This document shows positions 6,220 through 28,275 of a DNA stretch of 28,275 bases, one piece after another. Both the position numbers and the translations under genes were made by a program. How positions within the stretch are numbered: position 1 is the first letter of the stretch; each line of letters starts with the position of its first letter. The notes under the pieces were generated by a model, which was not told the origin of the DNA, did no database searches, and worked only from the letters and a program-made list of their open reading frames with translations. Source of the stretch: Chlamydiia bacterium (GTDB lineage: Bacteria; Chlamydiota; Chlamydiia; Chlamydiales; Rhabdochlamydiaceae); NCBI GenBank assembly GCA_963804085.1, contig CAWDOQ010000001.1:1-28275 (forward strand), in the 5' to 3' direction.

Positions 6220-6274
6220 ATTTTGATGCTTTATCTATCTCCAGCATTTTTTAAAAGAATTTATTTAAGCAAAA

Positions 6275-6361
6275 CGGAGGAGGTGGGATTCGAACCCACG
6301 AAACGTTTTCACGTTTACACGCTTTCCAAGCGTGCTCCATCGGCCACTCGGACACTCCTCC
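6275..6361 (-). tRNA. tRNA-Ser(GGA)
   Basis: The reverse complement folds as a cloverleaf: acceptor GGAGGAG/CTCCTCC, anticodon arm CACGC-TTGGAAA-GCGTG, long variable arm, T arm GTGGG-TTCGAAT-CCCAC, discriminator G. CCA is not encoded. Confidence 0.97.
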
Positions 6362-6436
6362 AAAAATTAATAGACTGGGAAAGATTAGCCGACTTTTTCT
6401 TTAATCACAAGCCACAAGACCCGAAGACTTTTTTTC

Positions 6437-10165: not shown

Positions 10166-10220
10166 CTCTTCCATCGTTTACTAAAAATTATTTTAACTGT
10201 AGAACGAAGCCGGGCACTCA

Positions 10221-13120: not shown

Positions 13121-13159
13121 ATGCCCATTTCCTCTGTACTGGACAAAAGTTTGGAAGAC

Positions 13160-13267
13160 AAAGAGTTAAAACAGGATGGGCAGGATAAGCAAGATGAAGA
13201 AAGAATCCTGTTTTAGATCATTCTCTTTCTTATCCTGTCTATCCTGCCCATCCTGTTTTAACTCTTT
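13160..13267. repeat. Long REP-like palindrome with 9-bp CAGGAT units
   Basis: Perfect 28-bp inverted repeat AAAGAGTTAAAACAGGATGGGCAGGATA (13160-13187) / TATCCTGCCCATCCTGTTTTAACTCTTT (13240-13267), with imperfect inward extension. Confidence 0.85.
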
Positions 13268-14102
13268 TTCTTTCTTATTCTGTCGCTTGGCATCCTGTAG
13301 AAATTCTTCTGTATTAATTTTTTATCCAGTACGGAGACCGATTTCACTGCAAAAGAGAAGGGGGAGATTATTCACTATCGTTCTGGGCGGATTACTTGCT
13401 GTATCTCCATTGAATGCTGTCTCGACCAGAGATTCAGATTTGGGAGGAAAATTAGAGCTGGGGATGTCCCAAGAGCCTTTATTTGTCAGTCTGGGTTCGG
13501 TTTGTGAAACGGCTCATATGCATAGAGAATGCGGCATTAGAAAAGCAGCTTTCCCTTTTGATTGGATTGTTTCTTTTGATGGAGAAAAACTGATTGAGCT
13601 TTTGGAGGAGGATTTTCTCCATTTCTTGAATCCTCACTTCCTAAGAGTTGCAGGAGCATCCCTTCTAAATGATTACTATCACCTGGAATTCCTCAATGAA
13701 GGAGACTGGGAAGATGCTGCTTATAAAATAGAAGAATTTACGAAGAAGTGTAATAGAAGAATCGATCGATTTAGACAACTAGGCAATTACGGGGGAAAAG
13801 TTTTTTTTGTAAGAACGGCATATCGCTATTCTCTTACGGATCCTCACCGCATCTGGAAAAATGAAGAGAACGTTTGGATCAGCCATGAATATGCAGAAAG
13901 GCTTTACAAGACGCTCAAGAATTACTTCCCTGACTTGGATTTTGACTTGGTGATTATCAATTTGCGAGACGGGACGGGTTTTGAAGTGGAGAAGTCTTCC
14001 GATCATCTTTTAATGGTAAAAATAGGGTGTATGATGATCGATTCTTATAAGGATTTTTACTCTCAATTGCTTATGGAAAGGGGCCTAAAATCCCCCCAAT
14101 GA
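13176..14102 (+). CDS. DUF1796-family putative papain-like cysteine peptidase (true start probably downstream, about 13350-13464)
   Basis: FVSLGSVCETA...RKAAFPFDW...RRIDRF...VFFVR. The first ~30 codons are translated palindrome. LFTIVLGGLLAVSPLNA looks like a signal peptide. Confidence 0.78.
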   Translation: MGRISKMKKESCFRSFSFLSCLSCPSCFNSFSFLFCRLASCRNSSVLIFYPVRRPISLQKRRGRLFTIVLGGLLAVSPLNAVSTRDSDLGGKLELGMSQEPLFVSLGSVCETAHMHRECGIRKAAFPFDWIVSFDGEKLIELLEEDFLHFLNPHFLRVAGASLLNDYYHLEFLNEGDWEDAAYKIEEFTKKCNRRIDRFRQLGNYGGKVFFVRTAYRYSLTDPHRIWKNEENVWISHEYAERLYKTLKNYFPDLDFDLVIINLRDGTGFEVEKSSDHLLMVKIGCMMIDSYKDFYSQLLMERGLKSPQ

Positions 14103-15052
14103 ACCTATCCCGATATTTCATTCTTCTTATTCTATCTGTAACAATGTGTTACTCCTTCTTAAACGGAGAAAATTATCCTTCCCGGTTTGAAGGCCGTTTT
14201 GCAGCATGGAAACAAAAGCGACTAGAATTCCTCTCCCTCTTTCTTCCTGCAAACTCTGTTGTTCTTCAAGCCGGAGGATATTATGGAGCTGAGACCCTTG
14301 ATTTTGCAGATCGCTGGCCGCAAGGCAAAATCATCTCATTTGAACCCAATCCGCATGCTTTTGAGATCCTTTCGTCCAAAACAGCAAATTTCGATAACAT
14401 TGCGGTTTACAACCTTGCCTTGAGCGATTCTTCTCGAATGAGTCCTTTTTATGTTTGTTATGGCTCCTCAGGTAGCGACGTTGTTTTTGAGCATGCAAGC
14501 TCTTTACTTTTGCCTTCTTCGTGTATGAAGGTCCATTATCAGGGGCCATGCATTAATGTTGAGTGCACCGTGCTTGATGAATGGTGTAGCCAAAACAAAA
14601 TCGATCATATTGATTTCATGTGTTTGAATTTACAAGGAGCAGAACTTCAAGCTTTGAAAAGTTCTCCTGAAATATTAAAAAACACAACATGCATCGCTGT
14701 TCACACCCATTTTTTCCCATTTCGCGTTGGAACCACACAATACCCGGCATTGAAAAGCTTTCTCGAGCATTCCGGCTTCCAACTTCTAGCGCATTGGTAC
14801 AGAGAAGGGTTGGATGGAGATGCAATTTTCGTAAAAAACGACTATTTTTTTAATAGAGAAAAAGAGAAATTCTTAAAACACAACAAGATCGACGGTGCAT
14901 ATAGAAGATATTACGAGCCTTTCTTTAAAGTGTACTACGATTTAGATGATTTAGACGATGGAGACTCACTTAAAACATGTCTTAAAAAGGGGCTACCCTA
15001 CGAAGGCAATATTGGAATCATAATCGATCGCCTGACAAATCTACTGCAATGA
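14099..15052 (+). CDS. FkbM-family methyltransferase with signal peptide
   Basis: VLQAGGYYG, ISFEPNP, YNLALSD, SSLL, TVLDEW, IDFMCLNLQGAE; signal MNLSRYFILLILSVTMCYSFLNG. Confidence 0.85.
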   Translation: MNLSRYFILLILSVTMCYSFLNGENYPSRFEGRFAAWKQKRLEFLSLFLPANSVVLQAGGYYGAETLDFADRWPQGKIISFEPNPHAFEILSSKTANFDNIAVYNLALSDSSRMSPFYVCYGSSGSDVVFEHASSLLLPSSCMKVHYQGPCINVECTVLDEWCSQNKIDHIDFMCLNLQGAELQALKSSPEILKNTTCIAVHTHFFPFRVGTTQYPALKSFLEHSGFQLLAHWYREGLDGDAIFVKNDYFFNREKEKFLKHNKIDGAYRRYYEPFFKVYYDLDDLDDGDSLKTCLKKGLPYEGNIGIIIDRLTNLLQ

Positions 15053-15151
15053 TTTCATAGCATTTCCTGTTGAATTAAACGCCGATCTGGCAAAATTCAA
15101 AAACAATTTCCGAAAACTTGATTTAAATCATTTTGAAATAGGACTGCAAAA

Positions 15152-15989
15152 ATGAAAAAGTTCTTACTTCCTCTTGATCTTGCTGTTGAACACAACGCCG
15201 CAAATAGCACAAACGAGCGAAATTCGTACTGCCGATGATATTACCTATGAATGGCTGACAACTGTTGGTGCCGCCACAGGTTACACCGATCACATCATCC
15301 ATTTTCAAAAACTATTCCAAGTTATGAAAGTGCGTACGTTTCTTGAATTTGGATTGGGCTTTTCCACAAAATACTTTTTAGACTCGAGCAAGAAGGTTAT
15401 CTCGGTGGAATTTATCACCAACGGATATGGCCCAGAGTGGATGAAAAGCTGTATTGATCTTTATCGGGACTACCCAAATTGGATTCCCATCGCTTACTTT
15501 TCAGGCTTTCCGAAAGATACGAATTGGGCTCCTTACAAGTATTTGGGATCGGAGCATGTTTACAAGGCCGGATCTTACCAGTGCGCTACTCATAAAAACT
15601 ATGCTCTTATCGATAAGTTTTATCTAACCGAACTCGATGCATTTATCACTAATTGCGTCAAAACAAATAAGATCGATGTGGCGTTCGTGGATTCGGGATT
15701 GTATCTGCGAGGTGATCTTGTCCAGCTCTTATTTGGCAAAGTTCCTGTAATTCTAGCTCATGATACGCGATGCCGAGACATGGGAATGCAAGATGACGTA
15801 TACGGCTACTCTCGAATTGTCACACCTGAAGATTATGAAGAGATTTTCATCTCTTCAGGGCAGGGGACTACTGTCTGGATCAAAAGAAGTGATCAGTACA
15901 GAGAAGTGGCAGCTGAGCTTAAAACTTATGCTGAAAACATAAGAAAAGTTACACTCAATTTGCTTCTCTTTTTTTCTGTTTTTTCTTAG
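15152..15989 (+). CDS. Class I SAM-methyltransferase-fold protein (apparent frameshift in the signal peptide)
   Basis: FLEFGLGFST, VISVE, DVAFVD and ILAHD motifs. The ATG at 15152 (MKKFLL) is out of frame with LILLLNTT..., which suggests a 1-nt indel. Paralogous to the C-terminal domain of 20034-22253. Confidence 0.72.
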
Positions 15990-16004
15990 CATCGACTTTC
16001 GCTT

Positions 16005-16935
16005 ATGACACTACGACATTTCTTTCTCCTATTCGCGCTCTCTCTACATGCTCTTCAAGCAGATGTCCAAGACTACTTTAAGAAGGTCCCGGACAAATCG
16101 GGCTTTCATCAGATGAAAAACATCGATTTCATCTACACAATCAATCTCGATCAAAGACCTGAAAAATTTGCAACTTGTACAAAGCAGCTGAACGTTTATG
16201 GTATCTACCCATGTCGTTTTTCTGCAGTAAATGGCTGGGAGCTCTCTTTAGAAACGATCAACGACTTAGGGGTTAAATATGCACCTTGGATGACGAACGG
16301 ACAATGGAGCACCTGGTACCCGATCGAGGGAGATGGTAAACCCCAGCATGAGATCGTGCACGAAATTGGAAGAACCTATTTTTGCCACTGCATGGCACGC
16401 GGTCCGATCGGTATTGTCTTAAGCCATCTTTCTGTTTTGCAAGATGCCTATGACTCTGGTTATGAGACTATTTGGGTGATGGAAGATGATATTGAGATCA
16501 TTCGCAATCCCCATATTCTTTCGAACCTGATCGAACAGCTCGATTCTCTCGTTGGAAAAGAAGGATGGGACATCTTGTTTACTGATCGTGATACAAAAAA
16601 CAATAATGGGCAATACGTGCCTTGTACCTCTTACGCATGGAGACCCAATTTTGCACCAACGGATCCCTATCGCTTTGGAAAAACGCGTGAGGTCAGTGCA
16701 GACTTAAGGCAGATCGGAGCACGTTACGGCGCCTACTCTATGATCGTGCGAAGATCGGGGATGAAAAAGCTTTTGCACTTCTTTAAAAAGTATGATGTCT
16801 TTCCTCCCCTTCGATATGGAGTTTGCTTTTCCTAATGATATGCACTTGTTTACTGTTACGAGCGATGTCGTCTCGACAAAGCCGGGATCACCTTCAGATA
16901 ATGGCGCACCTAATTACAAAAACCCAAGACCTTAA
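16005..16935 (+). CDS. Glycosyltransferase family 25 protein with signal peptide (frameshift near 16800)
   Basis: IYTINLDQRPEK, RFSAVNG, GPIGIVLSH, IWVMEDD. The tail LPFDMEFAFP...DVVS...PSDNGAPNY continues in another frame to TAA 16935, matching both paralogs. Confidence 0.85.
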
Positions 16936-16940
16936 GACAA

Positions 16941-17639
16941 ATGGATTATTACAATCACAATCCCCAGACTGAATCGCACTATGAATACGTTATAAACCGC
17001 AAAGAATCTTTGGTTATTTCTCCCGAACAAGCCAAACAACAAGCCTTCGTTGCTATGAGTCAATTGGAAGGGTGGTGTTCGCAAGAAAAAGCCTCTCTTC
17101 TCATGGATCTTATTTTCGCAAGCAAACCAAAAACACTTGTCGAAATAGGCGTATTCGGAGGTAAGTCACTTATCCCAATGGCCTACGCTTTAAAAGCAAA
17201 TGAGCAAGGGAAAATTTACGGAATCGATCCTTGGGAAAGTAGCGCCTCGATCGAAGGTGCCGCAAATCAAGCCAACAAAGAGTGGTGGAGTGCTCTAAAT
17301 CACGAAGCGATTAGGCAAGGTCTTGTAAATAAGATTAAACTCTTCGCCTTGGAAAAAGAGATAGAATTGATCAAAAGCAGCTCCGCTGATGCAGTGCCTA
17401 TCTCTGAGATCGACCTGCTTCATATCGATGGAAACCACTCGGATGCCACCTCTTATCTCGACGTGACAAAATGGGTGCCTTTGGTCGCAAGTGGCGGATG
17501 GATCGTATTTGACGATCTAACCTGGCATGAAAATGGTGTCTATACAACTGCGCGTGCAGTTGAATGGCTCAATGCAAATTGCATTAAGTTTGCTGAGTTC
17601 ACCGATTCTTGTACTTGGGGAGTCTGGATAAAACCATGA
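16941..17639 (+). CDS. Class I SAM-dependent methyltransferase (Methyltransf_24-like), no signal peptide
   Basis: GWCS.EKA, VEIGVFGGKS, GIDPW, DLLHIDGNH, GGWIVFDD. Confidence 0.88.
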   Translation: MDYYNHNPQTESHYEYVINRKESLVISPEQAKQQAFVAMSQLEGWCSQEKASLLMDLIFASKPKTLVEIGVFGGKSLIPMAYALKANEQGKIYGIDPWESSASIEGAANQANKEWWSALNHEAIRQGLVNKIKLFALEKEIELIKSSSADAVPISEIDLLHIDGNHSDATSYLDVTKWVPLVASGGWIVFDDLTWHENGVYTTARAVEWLNANCIKFAEFTDSCTWGVWIKP

Positions 17640-18307
17640 GAACGCTTCTCCTCTGTTTATGTTTTTTAGCTTCCTCTCTTCATGCCAATTCTGAAGTGGA
17701 AAAGTTAAAGCAGCGCGTCTTACTCGTACTTCCTACTCTGCAAGGCTGGTGCTCCAAAGAAAAAGCGATCAACTTTATCGATCTAGTCCTGGAAACCAAG
17801 CCGCGCGTTTGCGTAGAAATCGGGGTGTTCGGAGGCTCCTCAGTTTTTCCGGTCGCCTCGACGCTGAAGTTTTTAGGGCAAGGGGTCATCATCGGCATCG
17901 ATCCTTGGGATAAACTAGAATGCATTAAGTATTTCGATCCTGAAGAAGACAAAGCCCACTTAGAGTGGTGGGGAAAGGTCAACATGGATCACATCTACAT
18001 CTCCTACTTAAACATGATAAAAAGGCATGGATTGATCGACTACTGTTTGACGATGCGATCTACCTCTGAAGAAGCAGCTTCTGAAATCGACAGCATCGAT
18101 ATTTTGTATATCGATGGCAATCACAACGAAGCTGTCTCTACCAAAGACGTGACGCTCTATCTACCCAAAGTCAAAAAGGGTGGCTACATCTGGTTGGACG
18201 ATGCGTTATGGACGGGCACACAGCAGGCGGTCGATCTACTTTTAGTCTCTTGCGATGTCGTCAAGTTAATAGATAGTGGAAATTGCATTTTATTTAGAAA
18301 AAGATAG
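17636..18307 (+). CDS. Class I SAM-dependent methyltransferase (Methyltransf_24-like) with signal peptide
   Basis: Start at MRTLLLCLCFLASSLHA (17636); GWCS.EKA, VEIGVFGGSS, GIDPW, DILYIDGNH, GGYIWLDD. Tandem paralog of the previous gene. Confidence 0.88.
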   Translation: MRTLLLCLCFLASSLHANSEVEKLKQRVLLVLPTLQGWCSKEKAINFIDLVLETKPRVCVEIGVFGGSSVFPVASTLKFLGQGVIIGIDPWDKLECIKYFDPEEDKAHLEWWGKVNMDHIYISYLNMIKRHGLIDYCLTMRSTSEEAASEIDSIDILYIDGNHNEAVSTKDVTLYLPKVKKGGYIWLDDALWTGTQQAVDLLLVSCDVVKLIDSGNCILFRKR

Positions 18308-18319
18308 CCGAGTGAAGCC

Positions 18320-19087
18320 ATGTTGAAAAAAATCCCTTTTCTTATCCTAGCAGTCTTTTTGTGCTCTTTTACTGATCCGATCGATTTAAGCCAAAACGAT
18401 AGAGGGCTCTATAGTTTACATGGAGAAGATGGTATTCTTCAGAAAATTTTTACTCTGATCAAACCTATTTCTTGCTGCTGTGTGGAACTCGGGGTAAATC
18501 CAGGAATGCGCGGAAACATCTCTCCCCTCCTCGCAAAACAAAAATGGGATTGCATCTTGCTGGACAGGATACAAGGGGTTCCGGATTGCAATATCTATAA
18601 AGAATTCATCACAAGCGAGAACATCAACACTCTGCTTGCCAAATACGCAACGCCATCAGATTTAGACATCTTGTGCATCAACGTCGATTATAACAACTTT
18701 CATTTCTGGAAGGCGATTGATTCGCACTATCGTCCTCAGGTTGTGGTTATCGAATATAACGCTACCCACCTCCCATCTGTTGATAAGGTCGTAAAATACC
18801 GCCCCTATTTTTGCGGAGATGGCAGCAACTATTATGGCGCGAGCATTCTTTCTCTCTACCACTTGGGGAGAGCGAAGGGTTACTCTCTCATCTACGTTGA
18901 GAAGACGGGCTCCACCCTCTTTTTTCTTCGCGATGATCTTATTAAAGAGTACAACCTCGTGTTTAAAGATATGAATGACGTGGAGAAAATCTACCGCTAC
19001 CCCGCATATGGGAATGGACCCAATGGAGGAGCGCGTCAAGATAGACACAACCGCGAATATATAACATCTATGGATCTACTAAATTAA
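18320..19087 (+). CDS. FkbM/Methyltransf_21-related conserved protein with signal peptide
   Basis: YSLHGEDGIL, CVELG, EFITSENIN, DILCINVDYNN..W, RPQVVVIEYN, YYGAS...GY.LIY. Confidence 0.65.
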   Translation: MLKKIPFLILAVFLCSFTDPIDLSQNDRGLYSLHGEDGILQKIFTLIKPISCCCVELGVNPGMRGNISPLLAKQKWDCILLDRIQGVPDCNIYKEFITSENINTLLAKYATPSDLDILCINVDYNNFHFWKAIDSHYRPQVVVIEYNATHLPSVDKVVKYRPYFCGDGSNYYGASILSLYHLGRAKGYSLIYVEKTGSTLFFLRDDLIKEYNLVFKDMNDVEKIYRYPAYGNGPNGGARQDRHNREYITSMDLLN

Positions 19088-19091
19088 AGAT

Positions 19092-20033
19092 ATGCGTATT
19101 GGACAATTTTTCTCTTTTATGGTGATGGTTCTTGCGGCCTCTTTTGTGTCCGCAGATCTTGAAGAGCATTTGAAAAAAGTCGGGGATAAATCGGGTATGC
19201 ACACGATGCGGAATATCGACTTTATCTACATCATCAACCTCGATCAAAGACCTGAAAAACTTAAAAGTTCCCTAGATCAACTAGCGCCTTTCGGGATCTA
19301 TCCTTGTCGATTTTCTGCTGTCAATGGGTGGGAGCTCAGTTTAGAAGCGGTAAACGATATAGGGCTTAAGTTCTCTCAGGAAATGGAGGGGGGATTCATG
19401 GGGACCTGTTACCACGTAGGCGGCGAGGGCGAACCAAGCCATGAAACGATCTGCATTTATGGCCAAACCTATTTTTGCCACTGTCTTGCGCGTGGCGCGA
19501 TCGGTTGTACTTTAAGCCATCTCTCTGTTCTACAAGATGCTTATGACTCGGGGTATGAAACGGTCTGGATCATGGAGGATGATATCGATGTGATAAGCGA
19601 TCCTAGAATTTTATCTGATCTCATAGACAAACTCGATACTTTGGTCGGCAAAAATAATTGGGATGTATTGTTCACAGACCGCGACATCAGAGATGCAAAC
19701 GGAAATCCTAAAGCCTGCTATTGGGCAGCCAAGCGCCCCGATTTTGTCGCTTTTTCGTACAAGAACAATTATGCTGCAAGAGCAGATGTCAGCCCGGATT
19801 TTTGTAAAATTGGTGCGCGTTGGGGCTCTCATTCGATGATCCTGCGAAGAAGCGGCATCCAAAAACTTTTGCAGTTTTTTAAAGCACACGATATTTTTTT
19901 CCCTTACGACATGGATTACATCTTTCCGCCTGGCATCAAGCTTTATGCCGTAAGAAACGATGTTGTTTCCAATTCACCTAAAGCTCCTTCTGACAATGGT
20001 GGTCCCAACTATCTCAACAAACAATCACAGTAA
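19092..20033 (+). CDS. Glycosyltransferase family 25 protein with signal peptide
   Basis: IYIINLDQRPEK, RFSAVNG, GAIGCTLSH, WIMEDD, PYD. Confidence 0.88.
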   Translation: MRIGQFFSFMVMVLAASFVSADLEEHLKKVGDKSGMHTMRNIDFIYIINLDQRPEKLKSSLDQLAPFGIYPCRFSAVNGWELSLEAVNDIGLKFSQEMEGGFMGTCYHVGGEGEPSHETICIYGQTYFCHCLARGAIGCTLSHLSVLQDAYDSGYETVWIMEDDIDVISDPRILSDLIDKLDTLVGKNNWDVLFTDRDIRDANGNPKACYWAAKRPDFVAFSYKNNYAARADVSPDFCKIGARWGSHSMILRRSGIQKLLQFFKAHDIFFPYDMDYIFPPGIKLYAVRNDVVSNSPKAPSDNGGPNYLNKQSQ

Positions 20034-22253: not shown

Positions 22254-24390
22254 AATTGTTTGCAGCTATTTTCTGTTTTGCGTTCTACTGCTTCCTGCTT
22301 TTTTACAAAGCAATCAAGCGGGCCCCAAACTCTGCCTGACGATGGTAGTGCAAAACGATGCGCAAGTGATCCAAATGTGTTTAAACAACGTAAAGGATCT
22401 GGTCGATTGCATCTCTATATGTGATGTGGGATCTACTGATGCTACGATAAAAATCATCGAGCAGTTTTTCGAAGACACGGGCATTCCGGGCAAGATTTAC
22501 AAGCACCCTTGGCGCAACTTTGGTTACAACCAGACCTTGTCGGTGCAGGCAGCGCAAAAAACTCTTCAAGAGCTAGGCTTTTCTTTGAATAACAGTTATC
22601 TTTTCGTTCTGGATGCAGATATGTGCGTCCACATGGGATCGGAATTCCGCAAAGAGAGTTTGAATAAAGATGCCTACTTGCTATTAGAAAAAGCTCCCAG
22701 TTTCTCCTACTTTCATTACAGCCTGCATCTTCTTCGCGCCTCTCTTCCTTGGGAAAGTATCGGCCTTACCCACGCACTCTGGTCTGCAAAAGGCGCAGGT
22801 GAGTCCGCGAAACTACATACGTTAACTTTAGAAGAACAAGAAGATAGCAGAAGGCAGAGAGAGAAATTACTGCGAAACGTCCAGCTACTGAGCGATGGCC
22901 TCCGAGAACAGCCGGGCAATGCACGCCACATGTTTTTTTTGGCCCAATCTTATAAGTGGCTAAAACGGCTCGATGACGCGATCTTTTGGTACAAATCTCG
23001 TATAGCCCAAGGAGGAGATCAAGAGGAGACCTGGTTTTCTAAATGCATGCTAGGAGAGTGTTTTGAAGAGAAGGAGGAGTGGAACGAAGCGCTTTACTGG
23101 TACCTGGAAGCTTACCAACAAAATCCTAACCGCACCGCATCGCTCAGAAAAATTGCTACTCACTACCGAGTGCAAGGGCAAAATGATTTAGCCTACATCT
23201 TTGCCAAACATGGCTCGCGCATCCCCTTTTCTGATGATCAGATTCTATTTAGCTCCTCTCCTTTTTACCACTACCAGTTTAACGAAGAGCTCTCAATCGC
23301 AGCCTACTACACCCGTTTTAAAGAGGAGGGATTTTTAGCCGCAGACGATCTGCTTCTTAAAAAAAATGTGCCTTGGCACACTAAAGATCAGGCTTGGAAA
23401 AACATTCTCTTCTACGTGCAAAATTTGCCGGGCGCCCGTTTTATTCCAATCGACGTCGACCTTCCCCTGATCGAAGAGGATAGTGAAGAGAGATACCATC
23501 CTATGAACCCCTCCATTCAAAAAACAGAGGCTGGGTATCAGGTGATTTGTAGAGCTGTGAACTACACACAAACAGGAGCAAAGATATTCAACACAATCGA
23601 TAAGAGCGGCATTTTTAAGACCCGAAATTTTTTCATAGACTATGACCGAGACTTTAAGAAGCTATCTCAACAAGAGATTATCGAAAATTTACCTCGTGAA
23701 CACGTGGATTGCTGGATAGCAGCCAATATACAAGGGCTGGATGATTGCCGCATCTTCACCTTCCAAAACTCCTGTTGGTTTACTTGCACAACCAGCGACA
23801 CCAATCCCACAGGCAATTTCCAGATCTCTCTTTGTAAACTCGCGGAAAAAAAATTAAAAGGGACACTCTTTATAAAGAGCCTCACTCCTCTACAAGGTCC
23901 TGATCCCTATCGATGCGAAAAAAATTGGCTTCCCTTTTTAAATGAGGGAGAGCTACAGATCATCTACTCCTACGATCCCATCGTTATCTACAAACCTGAC
24001 ATTGAAACAGGAGAGTGCAAAGAGACTCTTCGCTACTCAGCTAGTCACGATTTTTCCCGCTTTCGCGGCTCTGCTGCGCCTATCGCTTTTAATGAGGGAT
24101 ACCTGATGCTCGTGCACGAGGTTGTGCAAATGGCCAATTACGAAAGACGCTATCTCCACAGATTCCTATACCTCGACAAAAACTTTATTATCAGCCAAGT
24201 TTCAAAGCCCTTTACGTTTCGCCATATCGGCATCGAGTTTTGCTTGGGTATGACCCTCGATCATGCGGGAAAGGAGCTCATCTTGACTGTTGGAATAGAG
24301 GATCGCGAAGCGTGGCTCTGTTTTGTGGGTCTGGGCACGGTCCAGTCTCTTCTTCGCCCCTTGCCTATCGAACCCATCTTTCAAAACTAA
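22237..24390 (+). CDS. GT2 glycosyltransferase domain + TPR repeats + C-terminal beta-propeller (GH130/GT91-like), with signal peptide
   Basis: LCLTMVVQND, DVGSTD, WRNFG, LDAD; TPR-like FFLAQSY...AIFWY and ALYWYLEAY; propeller NPSI, DDCR, EKNWLPF, RGSA, YLHRF, IEF. Confidence 0.8.
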   Translation: MKKITRIVCSYFLFCVLLLPAFLQSNQAGPKLCLTMVVQNDAQVIQMCLNNVKDLVDCISICDVGSTDATIKIIEQFFEDTGIPGKIYKHPWRNFGYNQTLSVQAAQKTLQELGFSLNNSYLFVLDADMCVHMGSEFRKESLNKDAYLLLEKAPSFSYFHYSLHLLRASLPWESIGLTHALWSAKGAGESAKLHTLTLEEQEDSRRQREKLLRNVQLLSDGLREQPGNARHMFFLAQSYKWLKRLDDAIFWYKSRIAQGGDQEETWFSKCMLGECFEEKEEWNEALYWYLEAYQQNPNRTASLRKIATHYRVQGQNDLAYIFAKHGSRIPFSDDQILFSSSPFYHYQFNEELSIAAYYTRFKEEGFLAADDLLLKKNVPWHTKDQAWKNILFYVQNLPGARFIPIDVDLPLIEEDSEERYHPMNPSIQKTEAGYQVICRAVNYTQTGAKIFNTIDKSGIFKTRNFFIDYDRDFKKLSQQEIIENLPREHVDCWIAANIQGLDDCRIFTFQNSCWFTCTTSDTNPTGNFQISLCKLAEKKLKGTLFIKSLTPLQGPDPYRCEKNWLPFLNEGELQIIYSYDPIVIYKPDIETGECKETLRYSASHDFSRFRGSAAPIAFNEGYLMLVHEVVQMANYERRYLHRFLYLDKNFIISQVSKPFTFRHIGIEFCLGMTLDHAGKELILTVGIEDREAWLCFVGLGTVQSLLRPLPIEPIFQN

Positions 24391-24395
24391 AACCC

Positions 24396-25397
24396 ATGCA
24401 ACGTCTCTTTCTAACTTATCTGATCCTTCTTCTCTCCTTCACCTCCCTTTATGGTACAGAGGAGATGGTCATTTCCACCCAGAAGATCGTTTTGGAAAAT
24501 TTTCCAGATGCTCACAACCCCTCGCTCATTAAATTCAAAGATGGCTTTCTTCTCACCTTTAGATATTGCCCAGAGAGGCGTAACCAGCCTTGGAACTCAG
24601 AGATTGGAGTTGTTCTACTCAATGATGCCCTGCAACAGATTTCTCTCCCGGAGCTACTCAATACACGGCTGAAATTCAGCAAAACACCCTCTCAAGCAGA
24701 AGATGCGCGCATTTTTTCCTACAAAAGCAGACTATTTCTCATCTACAACGACAACATCGATATAATCGCTCCTCCTATATGGGAGAGGCGCGATATGTTT
24801 ATGGCAGAGCTTTTTTATGATGGCAGCCACTTCTCTCTATCCCCTGCTCTAAAACTGGTCTATGAAGAAAAATACCAGATGCAGGCGTGGCAGAAAAATT
24901 GGGTGCCTTTTGAGTGGAAGGGTAAGCTCTTCATGATCTATTCGATCAATCCTCACGAGATTCTCTTTCCTAATTTAATGACCGGCTCTTGTTACCACTG
25001 CTATGACACATGGGCACCATTGGAGTGGAACTTTGGCGCGCTCCGCGGCAGCACGCCGCCTCTTCTGATCGAGGGAGAGTACTTGGCCTTCTTCCACTCA
25101 AGTGCCGTCGTAGCCTCCCCCGCTTCCTGGGATATGAATTTATGGCACTACTTCATGGGCGCCTACACCTTCTCGGCGACCCCTCCTTTTCAAATCACCA
25201 AAATTTCTCCCAAGCCTATTGTTGCAGAAGGGTTTTACACCCCATCGGGCTACGAAAAAAGAGTCGTTTTTCCAGGCGGATTTGTCATCTCAGACTCCAT
25301 CATCTACGTAGCTTATGGAAAAGATGATTCTGAGATCTGGATCGCCTCTCTCGATAAAGAGGCACTTATGCGCTCGCTTATTCCTATCAAAAAATGA
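24396..25397 (+). CDS. Five-bladed beta-propeller carbohydrate-active protein (GH130/GT91-like) with signal peptide
   Basis: Start at MQRLFLTYLILLLSFTSLYG (24396); HNPSL, AEDARI, QKNWVPF, LRGSTP, FFHS, YFMGAY, VVFPGG, YGKDD. Confidence 0.78.
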   Translation: MQRLFLTYLILLLSFTSLYGTEEMVISTQKIVLENFPDAHNPSLIKFKDGFLLTFRYCPERRNQPWNSEIGVVLLNDALQQISLPELLNTRLKFSKTPSQAEDARIFSYKSRLFLIYNDNIDIIAPPIWERRDMFMAELFYDGSHFSLSPALKLVYEEKYQMQAWQKNWVPFEWKGKLFMIYSINPHEILFPNLMTGSCYHCYDTWAPLEWNFGALRGSTPPLLIEGEYLAFFHSSAVVASPASWDMNLWHYFMGAYTFSATPPFQITKISPKPIVAEGFYTPSGYEKRVVFPGGFVISDSIIYVAYGKDDSEIWIASLDKEALMRSLIPIKK

Positions 25398-26827
25398 GTA
25401 CGACAATGCATTTTTTAAGAAGCTTTATCCTTTTTCTCTCTTTCATCTCTTCCTTATGCGCTGGAACCTACAAAATTGAGAGCATTTTTCCGGGTTATGA
25501 TGGGGAAAAGAAGATCTACCTTCTGACTCTTTTTTTGCCTTATAACCCAACTATTGTCTCCTTTACCCCCGACCCCAAAGTAAAGGCAGCATGCCATTTT
25601 TGGTGGCCAAAATGCTGCTTTTATTCAAATGACGAGCACCCTGACAATCCTTGCGATCTTTTATGGATCGCAAGCGACGGAGACGAACTCGATCTTCTTT
25701 ATAAAAATGAAGAGATGGTAAGACAAGCGAGCGCCATTTTTATAACCACGGACTTAACGAATCGGGGCATTCATTTCCAAAATTTAAAGTCCCTCCTGGC
25801 GATGTCCGGTTTTACCCTTTTGGGCCATTGGTATTGGGAAGATGAGCGTGGAGAGGCGATGTTTGTCAAAACCGATCTTCTAAATGCCGCCATGAGAACT
25901 CTCAATTACCCCCGTTCGAACTTCTCTGTAGCATTCCAACCCTTCGGAAACAAAATTGAACAGCACCTGCGTAAAGCCACAAATAAATCTTTAGAGCATA
26001 AGATCGATGGCATCGATTTTATCTACATGATCAACTTAGATGAGAGACCCGAAAAATTTGCTCTTGCAACTACTGAGCTTGCCTTTTACGGCATTTATCC
26101 CTATCGGTTTTCTGCAGTCAATGGATGGAAATTATCAACGGCTGCTATCAATGAAGTGGGCGTAAAATTCTCATCTGATTTCGGACAAGAAAAATTCCTC
26201 GGATCGATTTACAGAGAAATTAACGGCCAAGAGCACCTTGGGCATGAAATCCTCAGAGCGAATGGCGAGACATTCTTTACGCTCGGAATGTCTCATGGTG
26301 CCATCGGAATTGTCTTAAGCCATCTCTCTATTTTACAAGATGCTTACGACTCTGGGTTCCAAACAATCTGGGTCATGGAAGATGATGTAGAGGTTGTAGA
26401 TAACCCGGGGCAAATTCCCGAATCCATTCAAAAATTGGACGCGCTTGTCCCCGACTGGGACATTTTATTTACCGATACCGACACCAAAGACCGAGCCGGG
26501 CATCATGTTGCCTGTAGAGCCGTTGCTGCAAGACCCAATTTTCCTATTCCGCCTCTATCTGCTTATCTACAGCATTTTTATCCTGTGAGTAGCGACCTTT
26601 CTCGCATCGGTATGCGCTATGGCGCTTACTCCATGATTGTTAGACGTTCCGGGATGAAGAAGATTTTGCAACATTTCAAGACATATGGCATTTTCATTCC
26701 ATACGACATGGATCTTTGGCTGAATCCGGAGTTAAAAATGTACTGTGTGAGGAAAGATATCGTTTCACATCGCGCAGGAGCCCCTACCGATAATAGCGAA
26801 CCCCATTACCTAAAAAAGGGACCATGA
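25394..26827 (+). CDS. Degenerate FkbM-like domain fused to a GT25 glycosyltransferase, with signal peptide
   Basis: The N-terminal part resembles the 14099 protein (LFLP.N, LKS.L..SGF.LL.HWY....G.A.FVK). The C-terminal part has IYMINLDERPEK, RFSAVNG, GAIGIVLSH and WVMEDD. Confidence 0.83.
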   Translation: MSTTMHFLRSFILFLSFISSLCAGTYKIESIFPGYDGEKKIYLLTLFLPYNPTIVSFTPDPKVKAACHFWWPKCCFYSNDEHPDNPCDLLWIASDGDELDLLYKNEEMVRQASAIFITTDLTNRGIHFQNLKSLLAMSGFTLLGHWYWEDERGEAMFVKTDLLNAAMRTLNYPRSNFSVAFQPFGNKIEQHLRKATNKSLEHKIDGIDFIYMINLDERPEKFALATTELAFYGIYPYRFSAVNGWKLSTAAINEVGVKFSSDFGQEKFLGSIYREINGQEHLGHEILRANGETFFTLGMSHGAIGIVLSHLSILQDAYDSGFQTIWVMEDDVEVVDNPGQIPESIQKLDALVPDWDILFTDTDTKDRAGHHVACRAVAARPNFPIPPLSAYLQHFYPVSSDLSRIGMRYGAYSMIVRRSGMKKILQHFKTYGIFIPYDMDLWLNPELKMYCVRKDIVSHRAGAPTDNSEPHYLKKGP

Positions 26828-27768
26828 ACCTAATCCTCTGTTTTTTGTTATTTATCTCCTCTTCTCTCTATGCCTATGAAGATGCCGAGCTTTCGAAGTT
26901 ATGGGCATCGATTGCAGACGTCACTCATCCCACACTAGAAGATTACAAAAATATCGAAAACTATCTTCAGAAGAGCGAAAGACCATATCTTGAACCCTTA
27001 GCAAGTCTCGACAGATTAGTACGCATACGCAATTTTCAACTGATTGGTGCAGCGGGCGAGATGCCTATTTTCGAAACGCACTACTTGAACTGTGATGAAA
27101 AGTCCAAAAACCGTTGCGTCCTATTATTCGCCTCATCCAATGGCATTTATCCGGATAAGGCACGGAGAGCTCTTGCAGATCTACGTAATTGTGGCTACAA
27201 GGGCCATGTGCTTTTGCGCATCGGAGGATTTCCCAATTTGCCGAATGGCGGACTTAAAATTTGCCACGTACCATACGCTTTTAAGGTCGCCTTTTTAAAA
27301 GAGGCCCAGCTCCTCGGCTACAAAGAAGTGCTATGGATCGATACAGCCATGCACCCTCTAACAAATTTAGAAAAGATTTTCGCGATCATCAAAGAGAAAG
27401 GCCATTTTTTCACATACGTGGGATCCTTGTCTGATAATAGAACTACTCACCTTCCAGATGCTGCCGCTACTCTTCAGATCACACCCGCACTCTATGATCA
27501 GATTCCTCACGTCTCTTCGAGTCTGATGGGTTTTAACATGGAAAACCCCCTCTCTCTTCAATTGATCGACGAGTGGCTAATGGCTGCAGAAAATGTCTAT
27601 CCCTTTATGACCTGTTGGCCAGAAGAACTAAGCTTCTCCATCATCGCCTGGCGCCTTGAGCTCAAACCCTTTACCTGGTTTGGCAACTGCGTATGCGGTG
27701 CACACGAGCTGGAGATGCCCATCGTCCAAAAGCGCCCGCTCCAATTCTACATCGACGCCATTAGATAA
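26824..27768 (+). CDS. Putative GT-A-fold (DUF1647/GT34-like) protein with signal peptide
   Basis: Signal MNLILCFLLFISSSLYA. PYAFKVAFLKEA...VLWIDT resembles the Y.xK...W.Dx pattern of nucleotide-sugar transferases. Confidence 0.55.
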   Translation: MNLILCFLLFISSSLYAYEDAELSKLWASIADVTHPTLEDYKNIENYLQKSERPYLEPLASLDRLVRIRNFQLIGAAGEMPIFETHYLNCDEKSKNRCVLLFASSNGIYPDKARRALADLRNCGYKGHVLLRIGGFPNLPNGGLKICHVPYAFKVAFLKEAQLLGYKEVLWIDTAMHPLTNLEKIFAIIKEKGHFFTYVGSLSDNRTTHLPDAAATLQITPALYDQIPHVSSSLMGFNMENPLSLQLIDEWLMAAENVYPFMTCWPEELSFSIIAWRLELKPFTWFGNCVCGAHELEMPIVQKRPLQFYIDAIR

Positions 27769-28029
27769 GAATTCATCGCAAAGATGCAGAGGCGCAAAAT
27801 GTGTTTTATACTAAAAATTTGGCGATCGACTCACCGATTCCTGAACTGCTACCTGTCACAAGAGCTTTTTCTCAGCGACAACCACGAGTGAGAATGAAGA
27901 AAATTGCATTCTAAACACGCTTAAGATTAGTTCGTCGCTTGCCGCGTTCTTGCGCCGTTTGCTATTTTTATGACCGGACTCTAAGATAAAAGAGCTTTCT
28001 AAAATTTTTTAGAGGCATAGGAGACCCTT

Positions 28030-28275
28030 ATGAAACTGAAATATACGCTGTTTTTGATGCTTGTGCTGACAAACGGAAGAAATATCCAGGCTCTGGAAGA
28101 CTTTACTGATATTAGTTTGGACGACTATCTCTCAGAACAACGTATTCTCGTTACAGAGGGATATGTAACAGCCACGCAAAAGGCCGAATTTATACAAGAT
28201 ATGCAAAGAATTTCCAAAATCAAAAAGATCCTGGAAATTGGATTTAATGCAGGACATTCTGCTGAGCTATTTCTC
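28030..28275 (+). CDS. Class I SAM-dependent methyltransferase with signal peptide (partial, runs off the window)
   Basis: AGGAG RBS, MKLKYTLFLMLVLTNGRNIQA, then TEGY...KILEIGFNAGHSAELFL (SAM motif I). Confidence 0.8.
   Translation, partial: MKLKYTLFLMLVLTNGRNIQALEDFTDISLDDYLSEQRILVTEGYVTATQKAEFIQDMQRISKIKKILEIGFNAGHSAELFL

What the first reader, a model, noticed from the sequence alone, without database searches (positions are those of the whole stretch)
13176..28275. A 15-kb cluster of exported glycosyltransferases and methyltransferases, possibly an extracytoplasmic or host-directed glycan-building system
Seen: at least 14 co-oriented, mostly abutting or overlapping genes. All but one (16941) begin with a short basic/hydrophobic Sec-type signal (e.g. 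...LHALQA-D, ...SSLHA-N, ...SFVSA-D, ...AACFA-E, ...SSLYA-Y); for 13176 and 15152 the signal is inferred. No NDP-sugar synthesis, flippase, Wzy or ABC exporter gene is in the window. Established: GT2/GT25/GT47 enzymes use NDP-sugars and class I methyltransferases use SAM, both cytoplasmic pools, so bacterial LPS/capsule versions normally lack signal peptides. Eukaryotic GT25 (COLGALT) and GT47 (exostosin) act in the secretory lumen. Inference: an intracellular chlamydia may export a whole glycosylate/methylate/trim toolkit to the periplasm, inclusion lumen or host, using exported or host-derived donors.
Basis: partly seen in the sequence, partly recalled or inferred. Interest (0 to 1): 0.82.

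Follow-up and report, generated by a model that had tools for sequence, protein, structure and literature searches.

The report
Exported glycan-enzyme island of environmental chlamydiae
A chlamydia-like bacterium carries a conserved block of sugar-adding and methyl-adding enzymes that nearly all bear export signals, which is puzzling because such enzymes normally need fuels found only inside cells, and it may decorate collagen-like surface fibres inside the host vacuole.

Summary
Window 13176-28275 has 13 complete and 1 cut co-oriented genes. They encode three GT25, an A075L-like GT47 fused to an O-methyltransferase-like domain, a GT2-TPR-propeller protein, a GH130-like protein, FkbM and Methyltransf_24 methyltransferases, DUF1796, and two proteins without a family.

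By my own heuristic, 11 of 14 start with a short Sec-type signal, against 15-25% of 1977 rough ORFs genome-wide. The signal recurs in every family in relatives except the 16941 family (1 of 11).

The window is a whole contig of a 2.1-Mb obligate-intracellular Chlamydiales MAG. A g08-like GT25 occurs in 117 of 400 sampled genomes of the phylum, and the gene order recurs in fetched related loci.

New leads:
- Relatives add signal-bearing GT10, GT11 and GT92 enzymes, sulfotransferases, and even NDP-sugar dehydratase/reductases.
- A short paralogue of the GT2-TPR gene sits beside signal-bearing, Thr-rich collagen-like (BclA-like) genes, in this genome on contig C10 and in 5 of 11 related loci.

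Best reading (0.45): a Sec-exported toolkit that glycosylates and methylates envelope proteins, possibly collagen-like fibres, outside the cytoplasm on host-derived donors. Export, substrate and donors are all inferred. My six literature searches found no description.

The parts
13176..14102 (+). g01: DUF1796 protein. Its first ~60 codons fall in a dispersed palindromic repeat (about 13125-13350). A signal-like stretch follows at about residues 62-85.
   Evidence: Pfam 53.1 bits vs cut-off 23. The repeat gives BLAST matches on 11 other contigs. Homologues have signal-like starts in 3 of 3 cases.
14099..15052 (+). g02: FkbM-type SAM methyltransferase with a signal-like N-terminus.
   Evidence: Pfam 47.7 vs 22.7. 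TIGR01444 58.5 vs 37.7. Heuristic h-region of 13 residues.
15152..15989 (+). g03: O-methyltransferase-fold protein. The open frame starts at 15174; the ATG at 15152 is out of frame next to an A5 run, so the signal is broken in this assembly.
   Evidence: AlphaFold model pLDDT 93.2. Foldseek best hit is a cation-dependent O-methyltransferase, 3ntv, E 5e-6, TM 0.42-0.58. Frames. 15 of 17 homologues are signal-like.
16005..16932 (+). g04: GT25 glycosyltransferase with a signal. The frame ends at 16835, and the last ~45 residues of the family are readable in the +1 frame up to about 16932 (frameshift or assembly error).
   Evidence: Pfam 32.7 vs 24. tblastn of g08 residues 269-311 hits 16801-16929. 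Frames. Homologues are about 310 aa.
16941..17639 (+). g05: Methyltransf_24 methyltransferase, the only member without a signal.
   Evidence: Pfam 73.6 vs 26.3. 10 of 11 homologues also lack a signal.
17636..18307 (+). g06: Methyltransf_24 methyltransferase with a signal. The likely start is the ATG at 17636, which overlaps the g05 stop.
   Evidence: Pfam 56.6 vs 26.3. Heuristic. 14 of 15 homologues are signal-like.
18320..19087 (+). g07: protein without a family, with a signal. A possible FkbM-like methyltransferase (lead only).
   Evidence: No Pfam or NCBIfam hit. ESM Atlas feature hit of 0.95 to a cluster in which 42% of members carry PF05050. Found in 14 of 59 GT25 loci.
19092..20033 (+). 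g08: GT25 glycosyltransferase with a signal, and the best-conserved member of the island.
   Evidence: Pfam 43.2 vs 24. 2055 database proteins at E <= 0.001, with the best 120 listed (the first is the window's own protein) at 63-75% identity. Its EDD motif aligns with that of procollagen galactosyltransferase 1.
20034..22253 (+). g09: signal, then a GT47-like (A075L-like) domain (about residues 22-512), then a g03-like O-methyltransferase-fold domain (about 515-735).
   Evidence: PDB phmmer hit to A075L/exostosin chains, E 4e-16 over residues 124-313. The C-terminal part is 51-52% identical to g03. The two parts are separate genes in L016 and L006.
22237..24390 (+). g10: signal, then a GT2 domain, TPR repeats, and a GH130-like C-terminal part.
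   Evidence: GT2 scores 21.3 vs 23.3 and 23.8 bits. SunS hit 6.7e-7 and GmaR hit 5.6e-5. The C-terminal part resembles g11, 33% over 89 residues.
24396..25397 (+). g11: GH130-like beta-propeller protein with a signal.
   Evidence: Pfam 33.1 vs 26. Weak PDB hits to beta-1,2-oligomannan phosphorylase (E 0.0035) and the Uhgb_MS mannoside synthase (E 0.05).
25394..26827 (+). g12: signal, then an N-terminal part resembling the C-terminal half of FkbM g02, then a GT25 domain.
   Evidence: Pfam GT25 31.9 vs 24 at residues 209-436. 35% identity over 77 residues with g02. L023 has the same architecture.
26824..27768 (+). g13: protein without a family, with a signal. A candidate GT-A-like transferase (lead only).
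   Evidence: No Pfam hit. 478 representatives at E <= 0.001. Atlas score 0.94 to a Nucleotid_trans cluster. Family profile vs Legionella SetA, E 0.006, short stretch. The structure model was poor, pLDDT 49.
28030..28275 (+). g14: start of a further gene, cut by the contig end, with a signal-like N-terminus.
   Evidence: ORF listing; heuristic.
9146..11552 (+). Two paralogous outer-membrane genes with an inverse-autotransporter beta-domain, just upstream. This family is a recurrent neighbour of such islands; a functional link is unproven.
   Evidence: Pfam IAT_beta 42.2 and 45.5 bits vs 22.3. The family occurs in 10 of 59 GT25 loci and on contig C24.

Best explanation
The region is a conserved chlamydial island of glycan-building and glycan-modifying enzymes that are sent across the inner membrane by Sec signals.

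**Shown (in silico)**
- The family assignments.
- Signal-like N-termini in 11 of 14 genes.
- Conservation of the signal trait, and of its absence in g05, across relatives.
- Conserved gene order in fetched related loci, and the GT25 gene in many Chlamydiales genomes.
- GT and methyltransferase modules fused to each other.

**Inferred**
1. The mature enzymes work outside the bacterial cytoplasm, in the periplasm or, after type II secretion, in the lumen of the host vacuole.
2. They act in sequence to add sugars (GT25, GT47-like, GT2-TPR, GH130-like) and O-methyl groups (four to six methyltransferase-fold modules) to an exported acceptor.
3. The best candidate acceptor is a signal-bearing, Thr-rich collagen-like (GPT-repeat, BclA-like) fibre protein. 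In this genome it is encoded on contig C10 next to a signal-bearing GT2-TPR paralogue and a GT92.
4. NDP-sugars and SAM come from the host, entering the vacuole and diffusing through porins. Leloir-type enzymes and class I methyltransferases have no known donor pool in a periplasm.
For: **Signals**
- 11 of 14 genes are signal-like, against 14.8-25.3% of 1977 ORFs; tail probability 4.5e-5.
- In 23 related loci, signal-like starts were found in g01 3/3, g02 3/3, g03 15/17, g04 10/11, g06 14/15, g07 7/9, g08 27/36, g09 6/8, g10 16/19, g11 11/15, g12 3/5, g13 3/3, but g05 only 1/11. Many misses are cut or frameshifted copies.
- 101 of 115 database homologues of g08 are signal-like. Their N-termini are variable but hydrophobic.
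- h-region median 13 residues; 2 of 105 reach 19 or more.

**Conservation**
- Gene order is conserved.
- The GT25 occurs in 117 of 400 sampled genomes.
- Around 59 GT25 loci, GT2-TPR/GH130 occurs in 45, g03/GT47 in 30 and g07 in 14.
- ORFs in 40 GT25 loci are signal-like in 365 of 671 cases, against 95 of 320 in 20 control loci.

**Contrast within the genome**
- GT4: 0 of 6 are signal-like.
- GT92: 2 of 2; GT2-TPR: 2 of 2; GT25: 3 of 3.

**Donor chemistry outside the cytoplasm**
- Four signal-bearing SDR-type NDP-sugar dehydratase/reductase genes lie in 3 of 59 loci (L006 twice, L056, L065).
- Signal-bearing GT10, GT11 and GT92 enzymes and sulfotransferases occur in related loci.

**Substrate lead**
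- On C10: an 872-codon signal-bearing collagen-repeat ORF with Thr at the Y position in 113 of 150 triplets, a BclA_C-like ORF, a GT92 and a short GT2-TPR.
- The short GT2-TPR has a collagen-like run within 5 kb in 5 of 11 loci, against 0 of 20 control loci with any such run.
- The GT2 domain of g10 resembles the protein glycosyltransferases SunS and GmaR.

**Secretion and precedent**
- A T2SS is present.
- C. trachomatis makes glycogen in the vacuole lumen from host UDP-glucose with secreted bacterial enzymes (PMC4829429, abstract read).
Against: - No trained signal predictor and no experiment was available, so the heuristic can err. By the lax rule it also flags 25% of all ORFs.
- The window has no collagen-like gene and no short GT2-TPR.
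- In the systematic sample only 4 of 40 GT25 loci hold a collagen-like run, against 0 of 20 controls (p = 0.29). In the first set it was 4 of 23.
- Genome co-occurrence is modest: 56 genomes have both, 61 GT25 only, 72 collagen only, 211 neither. Related genomes are not independent.
- The BclA_C match on C10 scores 30 bits, below the cut-off of 38.
- Known GT25 collagen enzymes act on hydroxylysine. These repeats have almost no Lys (7 in 872 codons), and no hydroxylase was seen.
- No source of NDP-sugar or SAM outside the cytoplasm was identified. The genome's own NDP-sugar enzymes lack signals.
- Three genes of the island look damaged in this assembly (g01, g03, g04).
Confidence: 0.45

Rival explanations
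1. Host-directed toolkit. The enzymes are secreted (Sec, then T2SS or vesicles) and remodel host glycans or glycoproteins in the vacuole lumen, the host secretory pathway or the host cytosol, where NDP-sugars, SAM and PAPS exist.
For: - The signals and T2SS are as above.
- The families found (GT10, GT11, GT25, GT47-like, GT92, sulfotransferases) are typical of eukaryotic secretory-pathway enzymes. That typicality is recalled knowledge.
- Sec-signal proteins of Chlamydia are reported in the inclusion lumen or host cytosol: CPAF in PMC5989220 and cHtrA in PMC3107777 (search listing and abstract starts only).
- The closest solved relatives of g09 and g08 are a chlorovirus enzyme and a human enzyme.
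Against: - A dozen sequential sugar and methyl modules, fused to each other, fit building a complex glycan of the bacterium's own better than modifying a host target.
- O-methylated glycans are not typical host structures (recalled).
- There is recurrent linkage to bacterial signal-bearing collagen-like and outer-membrane genes.
- No host-targeting motif was tested.
Confidence: 0.2
2. Periplasmic finishing of a conventional glycan. The enzymes modify LPS O-antigen or another polysaccharide that was made in the cytoplasm by the signal-less cluster and then exported.
For: - A conventional cluster exists at C10:232-250 kb: ManC, GDP-mannose dehydratase, GT4, GT2, GT90, DegT and methyltransferases.
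- Further NDP-sugar genes lie on C11, with an ABC ATPase on C9.
- Bacterial GT25 is named after LPS biosynthesis (Pfam description).
Against: - Known periplasmic glycan modification uses lipid-linked donors and GT-C enzymes (recalled), not GT-A, GT-B or SAM enzymes.
- The two gene sets are not linked in this assembly.
- This does not solve the donor problem any better than the other readings.
Confidence: 0.15
3. Uncleaved N-terminal anchors. The hydrophobic N-termini tether the enzymes to the inner membrane with the catalytic domain in the cytoplasm, as in ordinary LPS or capsule synthesis.
For: - This would solve the donor problem at once.
- The genome makes NDP-sugars in the cytoplasm: 4 NTP_transferase genes and several SDR genes without signals.
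- My heuristic cannot prove cleavage.
Against: - h-regions are short (median 13; 2 of 105 reach 19 or more).
- The basic n-region and the acidic or neutral stretch after the h-region predict N-in/C-out, i.e. the catalytic domain outside. In 90 of 105 the n-flank is more positive (partly circular).
- Small residues sit at -3/-1.
- The genome's conventional GT4 and GT2 enzymes have no such N-terminus.
- The candidate substrates carry signals too.
Confidence: 0.12
4. Decaying or inactive remnant of transferred eukaryote- or virus-like genes, with no present function in this organism.
For: - In this assembly g01 has a repeat at its 5' end, g03 a frameshift in the signal, and g04 a frameshift near the 3' end.
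- G+C is somewhat lower (0.38-0.46) than in the left half of the contig (0.44-0.50).
Against: - Ten genes are intact.
- The families keep 50-70% identity and their gene order across many genomes.
- Acidic motifs are kept.
- The lesions may be assembly errors; one lies at a homopolymer.
Confidence: 0.05

Closest known systems
Vacuole-lumen glycogen synthesis of Chlamydia trachomatis (secreted GlgA and partners using host UDP-glucose imported by SLC35D2; PMC4829429, abstract read)
   Same: A chlamydia places a Leloir-type glycosyltransferase outside its own cytoplasm and feeds it with a host nucleotide sugar inside the vacuole.
   Different: - There the enzymes leave by type III secretion; here the genes carry Sec-type signals.
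- There it is one storage polymer; here there are many GT families plus methyltransferases.
- No donor transporter is identified here.
- Nothing here has been tested at the bench.
BclA-type collagen-like glycoproteins of Bacillus and Clostridioides spores with dedicated glycosyltransferases (e.g. BclA3 and SgtA; PMC7157674 and PMC10470788, abstract starts only)
   Same: Thr-rich GXT/GPT collagen-like repeats with a BclA_C-like end, encoded next to glycosyltransferase genes (C10 of this genome; L007, L008, L013, L020, L032, L037, L039, L043).
   Different: - In spore formers the glycosylation takes place in the mother-cell cytoplasm (recalled). Here both the enzymes and the collagen-like proteins carry export signals.
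- The window itself has no collagen-like gene.
- The BclA_C matches are at or below Pfam's cut-off.
Giant-virus glycan machinery: mimivirus L230 (GT25-like domain acting on collagen-like proteins) and chlorovirus PBCV-1 A075L (proposed xylosyltransferase), with GT and methyltransferase modules (PMC9614988, passages read)
   Same: - A GT25-like enzyme occurs together with collagen-like proteins in a microbe of protists.
- g09 matches A075L at E 4e-16.
- Sugar transferases are coupled with methyltransferases.
   Different: - The viral enzymes work in the host cytoplasm without signals.
- L230 acts on hydroxylysine and carries a hydroxylase domain, which was not seen here.
- No close viral relative of g08 was found in IMG/VR.
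Eukaryotic ER/Golgi-lumen enzymes: COLGALT1 (GT25), exostosin-type GT47, GT10/GT11 fucosyltransferases, GT92
   Same: The same families, with an N-terminal hydrophobic targeting segment and a catalytic domain placed on the non-cytosolic side of a membrane. Donors must be imported.
   Different: - The eukaryotic enzymes are mostly type II membrane proteins with longer anchors (recalled).
- Similarity to COLGALT1 is weak (E 0.003, 76 residues).
- No phylogeny was made.
Bacterial GT25 enzymes of lipo-oligosaccharide synthesis (Pfam PF01755, 'LPS biosynthesis protein')
   Same: The Pfam family is matched above its cut-off by g04, g08 and g12.
   Different: Those enzymes are cytoplasmic and lie with LOS/LPS genes (recalled). 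Here they carry signals and lie with methyltransferases, GT47-like and GH130-like genes.

Membership tests
Sec/SPase I cleavable signal peptide | Short basic n-region, hydrophobic h-region of about 7-15 residues, and small residues at -3/-1. | tested here: met
   My own heuristic flags 11 of 14 genes, with h-regions of 10-17 residues. Over 105 homologues the median is 13. The heuristic also flags 15-25% of all ORFs.
Sec/SPase I cleavable signal peptide | A call by a trained predictor (SignalP, DeepTMHMM), and cleavage or export shown by experiment. | not testable with these tools
   No such predictor was among the tools, and no proteomic data were available.
CAZy GT25 (Pfam PF01755) | Domain match above the curated cut-off. 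| tested here: met
   g08 43.2, g04 32.7 and g12 31.9 bits vs 24. Whole-genome search gives the same three places.
CAZy GT25 (Pfam PF01755) | Acidic DXD-type motif of the GT-A fold. | tested here: met
   The EDD of g08 aligns with the EDD of procollagen galactosyltransferase 1. g04 and g12 carry the same motif (read).
GT47/exostosin (A075L type) | Pfam Exostosin_GT47 above its cut-off. | tested here: not met
   20.0 bits vs 33.4. RXYLT1_C scores 27.2 vs 27.
GT47/exostosin (A075L type) | Clear sequence similarity to a solved member. | tested here: met
   phmmer E 4e-16 to chains 8q8i, 8avq and 8asa (A075L/exostosin) over residues 124-313.
GT2-TPR protein glycosyltransferases (SunS, GmaR) | GT2 domain followed by TPR repeats. 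| tested here: inconclusive
   - g10 GT2 scores 21.3 vs 23.3 and 23.8 bits.
- The TPR models are all below their cut-offs.
- PDB hits: SunS 6.7e-7, GmaR 5.6e-5, designed TPR proteins 2e-4.
- The C10 paralogue's GT2 domain scores 55.3 bits.
GT2-TPR protein glycosyltransferases (SunS, GmaR) | SunS equivalog (TIGR04195) score. | tested here: not met
   33.7 bits vs cut-off 350. It is a distant relative, not a SunS.
GH130 beta-mannoside phosphorylase/hydrolase/synthase | Pfam PF04041 above its cut-off. | tested here: met
   g11 scores 33.1 vs 26. The catalytic and phosphate-binding residues were not examined.
Class I SAM methyltransferases (FkbM, Methyltransf_24, cation-dependent OMT fold) | Family match or fold match. 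| tested here: met
   g02, g05 and g06 are above their cut-offs. g03 matches by fold. g07 has only an Atlas lead. SAM binding was not tested.
Conventional Wzx/Wzy- or ABC-dependent O-antigen/capsule locus | Initiating transferase, flippase or ABC exporter, polymerase and NDP-sugar genes in the locus. | tested here: not met
   None was found among the window ORFs scanned. Such genes lie on other contigs.
BclA-type collagen-like glycoprotein system | A collagen-like GXT-repeat protein with a BclA_C end, encoded beside its glycosyltransferase. | tested here: inconclusive
   - Met on contig C10: Collagen 150.5 bits, but BclA_C 30 bits vs 38.
- Met in 5 of 11 loci with the short GT2-TPR.
- Not met in the window.
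- 4 of 40 GT25 loci vs 0 of 20 controls, p = 0.29.

The most novel reading that the evidence does not exclude
Environmental chlamydiae run a Golgi-like glycosylation factory outside their own cytoplasm. In the periplasm and the host-derived vacuole, a battery of Sec-exported Leloir glycosyltransferases, SAM methyltransferases, sulfotransferases and even NDP-sugar-converting enzymes uses host-supplied activated donors. With these it builds methylated O-glycans on collagen-like surface fibres.
Probability: 0.3. Interest if true: 0.9.

Novelty: new variant of a known kind. Interest (0 to 1): 0.75.

Why it matters
- Leloir glycosyltransferases and class I methyltransferases are textbook cytoplasmic (or Golgi-lumen) enzymes. 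A conserved, multi-family set with export signals in a bacterium means one of two things: either an unrecognised donor supply outside the cytoplasm, or a new way for an intracellular bacterium to tap host nucleotide sugars and SAM.
- It would extend the one known case, luminal glycogen synthesis in C. trachomatis, to complex glycans.
- It would name the first candidate glycoprotein system and surface fibres of environmental chlamydiae.
- It gives clear tests: export fusions, glycoproteomics and donor screens.
- The families without annotation (g03, g07, g13) would gain a functional context.

Tried and rejected
- **Profile-profile comparisons.** Comparing the unknown families with the methyltransferase families gave only motif-I-length matches: A1 vs A4 probability 4.5%, A2 vs A5 2.6%, A2 vs A4 66% over 14 columns.
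- **PDB profile searches** for g03, g07 and g13 found nothing meaningful. A phmmer search with DUF1796 found nothing.
- **g13 structure.** The model from a 3-sequence alignment was poor (pLDDT 49.1), so no fold search was run on it. A deeper profile of 79 sequences gave only a short hit to Legionella SetA at E 0.006. In the Pfam scan 1 of 79 members matched GT8 at E 0.0059 and 1 of 79 matched PilM_2 at 0.0055.
- **Viral contigs.** No match for g08.
- **Earlier findings of this scan.** Both look-ups were empty.
- **Cluster look-up** gave no organism names beyond 'Chlamydiales bacterium'.
- **GT25-collagen adjacency** was not significant in the systematic sample: 4 of 40 vs 0 of 20, p = 0.29.
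- **Lipoprotein signals.** No canonical lipobox was seen by eye in the 11 N-termini; this was not tested with a tool.
- **Transmembrane anchors.** Judged unlikely from h-region lengths.
- **Own genome.** No signal-bearing NDP-sugar enzyme was found; 9 SDR hits were inspected, and the one flagged looks like a false positive at the Rossmann strand.
- **Literature.** Six searches found no description of this system. PMC2824669 was checked and is unrelated.

Full report
**What is there**

The window is the whole of contig C1 of a 2.13-Mb, 24-contig genome that is 91% complete. From 13176 to the contig end there are 13 complete ORFs and one cut ORF on the + strand. Most abut or overlap. I number them g01 to g14 in order. 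Pfam assigns the following:
- DUF1796: g01.
- FkbM: g02.
- GT25: g04, g08 and g12.
- Methyltransf_24: g05 and g06.
- A weak exostosin/RXYLT1 signal: g09.
- A weak GT2 plus TPR signal: g10.
- GH130: g11.
- Nothing: g03, g07, g13 and g14.

NCBIfam adds only FkbM and distant SunS and GH130 matches.

Further searches refine several of these:
- g09 matches the solved chlorovirus A075L/exostosin chains at E 4e-16.
- The GT2 part of g10 matches the protein glycosyltransferases SunS and GmaR.
- g08 aligns its EDD motif with that of human procollagen galactosyltransferase 1, but weakly (E 0.003).
- g03 and the C-terminal third of g09 are paralogues. A confident model of g03 (pLDDT 93) has the fold of cation-dependent O-methyltransferases (Foldseek E 5e-6, TM 0.42-0.58).
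- g07 has only an Atlas lead to FkbM.
- g13 has only Atlas and profile leads to GT-A-type transferases. Its structure model failed.
- No NDP-sugar, flippase, polymerase or exporter family was found in the window ORFs scanned.

**The export signals**

No trained predictor was on hand, so I wrote an n/h/c heuristic.
- It flags 11 of 14 genes, with h-regions of 10-17 residues.
- Genome-wide it flags 293 of 1977 rough ORFs at the first start, and 501 of 1977 at any start within 40 codons.
- The binomial tail is 4.5e-5 at the laxer rate.

The three unflagged genes are instructive.
- g05 has no signal, and neither do 10 of 11 of its homologues.
- g03 has an out-of-frame ATG at 15152, directly before an A5 run. 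15 of 17 of its homologues have signals.
- The first ~60 codons of g01 belong to a palindromic repeat that has BLAST matches on 11 other contigs. 3 of 3 of its homologues have signals.

Across the 23 related loci, every other family keeps a signal-like start in most copies. Many of the misses are cut or frameshifted copies.

Among 115 database homologues of g08, 101 are flagged. Their N-terminal h-region is poorly conserved (0.33) but hydrophobic (mean KD 2.0), while the mature part is conserved at 0.7-0.8. That is the expected pattern for a signal peptide.

Over 105 flagged homologues:
- The median h-region is 13 residues, and only 2 reach 19.
- In 85 the 15 residues after the h-region have net charge 0 or below. 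This set was chosen with the same heuristic, so the charge of the n-region is partly circular.

Within the same genome, none of the 6 GT4 ORFs found and no ordinary GT2 has a convincing signal. GT25 (3 of 3), GT92 (2 of 2) and GT2-TPR (2 of 2) do.

**Who has it**

The related loci come from records titled Chlamydiae, Chlamydiales or Rhabdochlamydiaceae, and a few are labelled Verrucomicrobia. The genome has 4 places matching the NTT nucleotide-transporter family, three secretin matches, and a secretin-GspE-GspF set on C17. This fits an obligate intracellular chlamydia.

Distribution of the g08-like GT25:
- It has 2055 database relatives at E <= 0.001.
- It is present in 117 of 400 sampled genomes of the phylum, all in the same order.
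- By family: 52 of 90 in the window's own family, 29 of 69 and 9 of 46 in two others, and 0 of 23 and 0 of 29 in two more.

The order GT25-MT24-MT24-g07-GT25-g03-(GT47)-GT2TPR-GH130 recurs. In 59 GT25 loci from distinct genomes, the co-located families are:

| Family | Loci (of 59) |
|---|---|
| GT2-TPR/GH130 | 45 |
| g03/GT47 | 30 |
| g07 | 14 |
| inverse-autotransporter beta-domain | 10 |
| FkbM | 10 |
| GT92 | 9 |
| DUF1796 | 8 |
| g13 | 5 |
| GT11 | 5 |
| GT10 | 4 |

ORFs in 40 systematically fetched GT25 loci are signal-like in 365 of 671 cases, against 95 of 320 in 20 control loci from the same genomes.

**What the relatives add**

Pfam scans of neighbouring genes show further signal-bearing enzymes: GT92, GT10, GT11, sulfotransferases and a Methyltransf_23 family. 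The list also includes, by my reading only, a pyruvyltransferase-like family.

Most telling are four SDR-type NDP-sugar dehydratase/reductase genes whose Rossmann motif follows directly on a signal-like N-terminus: two in L006, one in L056 and one in L065. The only known substrates of such enzymes are nucleotide sugars. Their presence in 3 of 59 loci therefore fits nucleotide-sugar chemistry in the export compartment. The window's own genome has no such signal-bearing copy.

**A candidate substrate**

On contig C10 a signal-bearing paralogue of g10 (GT2-TPR, 403 aa) lies next to three other genes:
- a signal-bearing GT92;
- an ORF with a BclA_C-like domain (30 bits, below the cut-off of 38);
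- an 872-codon, signal-bearing collagen-repeat ORF whose Y position is Thr in 113 of 150 triplets. This gene is frameshifted in the assembly.

Collagen-like runs also lie within the flanks of the GT25 cluster in L007, L008, L013 and L020, that is in 4 of 23 loci. They lie in 4 of the 40 systematically fetched loci, against 0 of 20 controls. That difference is not significant on its own (p = 0.29).

The link is tighter for the short GT2-TPR. A collagen-like run lies within 5 kb in 5 of 11 loci, and in three of them within about 600 bases. None of the 20 control loci has any such run (p = 0.003, with kin not independent).

At genome level, 56 genomes have both GT25 and collagen repeats, 61 have GT25 only, 72 have collagen only and 211 have neither. 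Repeats are often unassembled in MAGs, so this table is rough.

Thr-rich GPT repeats with a BclA_C end recall the glycosylated BclA proteins of spore formers, and a GT25-like domain acts on collagen-like proteins in mimivirus (PMC9614988, passages). That viral enzyme uses hydroxylysine, which is almost absent here.

**How it most likely works**

Shown: the family content, the signals as sequence features, their conservation, the gene order, and the GT-methyltransferase fusions (g09 here; 502-residue GT25+MT24 proteins).

Inferred: the enzymes cross the inner membrane, act in sequence on an exported acceptor, and draw NDP-sugars and SAM from the host side. The acceptor may be collagen-like fibres or other envelope proteins. 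The only documented precedent for such a donor route is C. trachomatis, which imports host UDP-glucose into its vacuole for secreted glycogen enzymes (PMC4829429, abstract).

Rivals:
- A host-directed effector set.
- Periplasmic finishing of the glycan made by the conventional signal-less cluster at C10:232-250 kb.
- Uncleaved anchors with cytoplasmic catalysis.
- Gene decay.

**Novelty**

Six full-text searches found no description of signal-bearing GT25, GT47 or methyltransferase islands, or of collagen-like proteins, in chlamydiae. Subscription journals and supplements were not searched.

I rate it a new variant of known kinds, namely protein-glycosylation systems for collagen-like surface proteins and vacuole-lumen metabolism of chlamydiae. 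It carries a real biochemical puzzle, the donor supply, that is directly testable.

Noticed in passing
window 13125-13350: A palindromic dispersed repeat (it matches itself inverted at 13155-13272). It has many 75-90% identical BLAST matches on 11 other contigs (C2, C15, C19, C22, C16, C13, C6, C17, C7, C18, C10). It supplies the apparent first ~60 codons of g01. It looks like a miniature mobile element.
   Followed up: partly
window 15152-15175 and 16790-16932: Two frame breaks. The g03 start codon is out of frame at an A5 run, and the last ~45 residues of g04 are in the +1 frame. These could be real lesions, homopolymer sequencing errors or phase variation; I cannot tell which.
   Followed up: partly
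window 9146-10165 and 10221-11552: Two paralogous genes with an inverse-autotransporter beta-domain and the same C-terminal tail. The family is a recurrent neighbour of GT25 islands (10 of 59 loci; also on C24).
   Followed up: partly
window 11549-12985 (- strand): A 478-residue ORF with no Pfam or NCBIfam family and several hydrophobic stretches in its first ~150 residues. It lies between the outer-membrane genes and the island.
   Followed up: no
window 6598-7689 (- strand): A Fic-domain protein (63.4 bits) with a weak helix-turn-helix match at its C-terminal end, next to tRNA-Ser(GGA) at 6274-6362.
   Followed up: no
G000 contig C24 (locus L031:1-9512): A second signal-rich piece of the same kind: a Methyltransf_24 fragment, GT92, DUF1796, two proteins without a family and an IAT_beta protein. 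By the lax rule 6 of its 8 ORFs are signal-like. It may adjoin C1 in the real genome.
   Followed up: partly
G000 contig C10:10.3-15.7 kb (locus L029:9278-14667): A collagen-like GPT-repeat gene, frameshifted inside its repeats in the assembly, with a BclA_C-like ORF, a GT92 and a short GT2-TPR. All but the BclA_C-like ORF have signal-like starts.
   Followed up: yes
loci L006:6903-8944, L056:16477-17550, L065:6254-7159: SDR-type NDP-sugar dehydratase/epimerase-reductase genes whose Rossmann motif follows directly on a signal-like N-terminus. This is unusual for enzymes of nucleotide-sugar synthesis.
   Followed up: partly
loci L013:16434-19657, L015:609-5638, L009:8601-10175, L032:2453-4021: A family of ~525-residue signal-bearing proteins without a Pfam match, often in tandem, lying between collagen-like genes and the short GT2-TPR (5 of 59 loci).
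   Followed up: no
window 1-300: The first 300 bases of the contig are 96.7% identical to C3:735-1034, so the contig probably ends in a repeated gene.
   Followed up: no
G000 contig C11:6922-7746 (locus L093): An FkbM methyltransferase with a signal-like start, sitting among signal-less NDP-sugar genes (DegT, two epimerases, GT2). The two kinds of gene are therefore not always kept apart.
   Followed up: no
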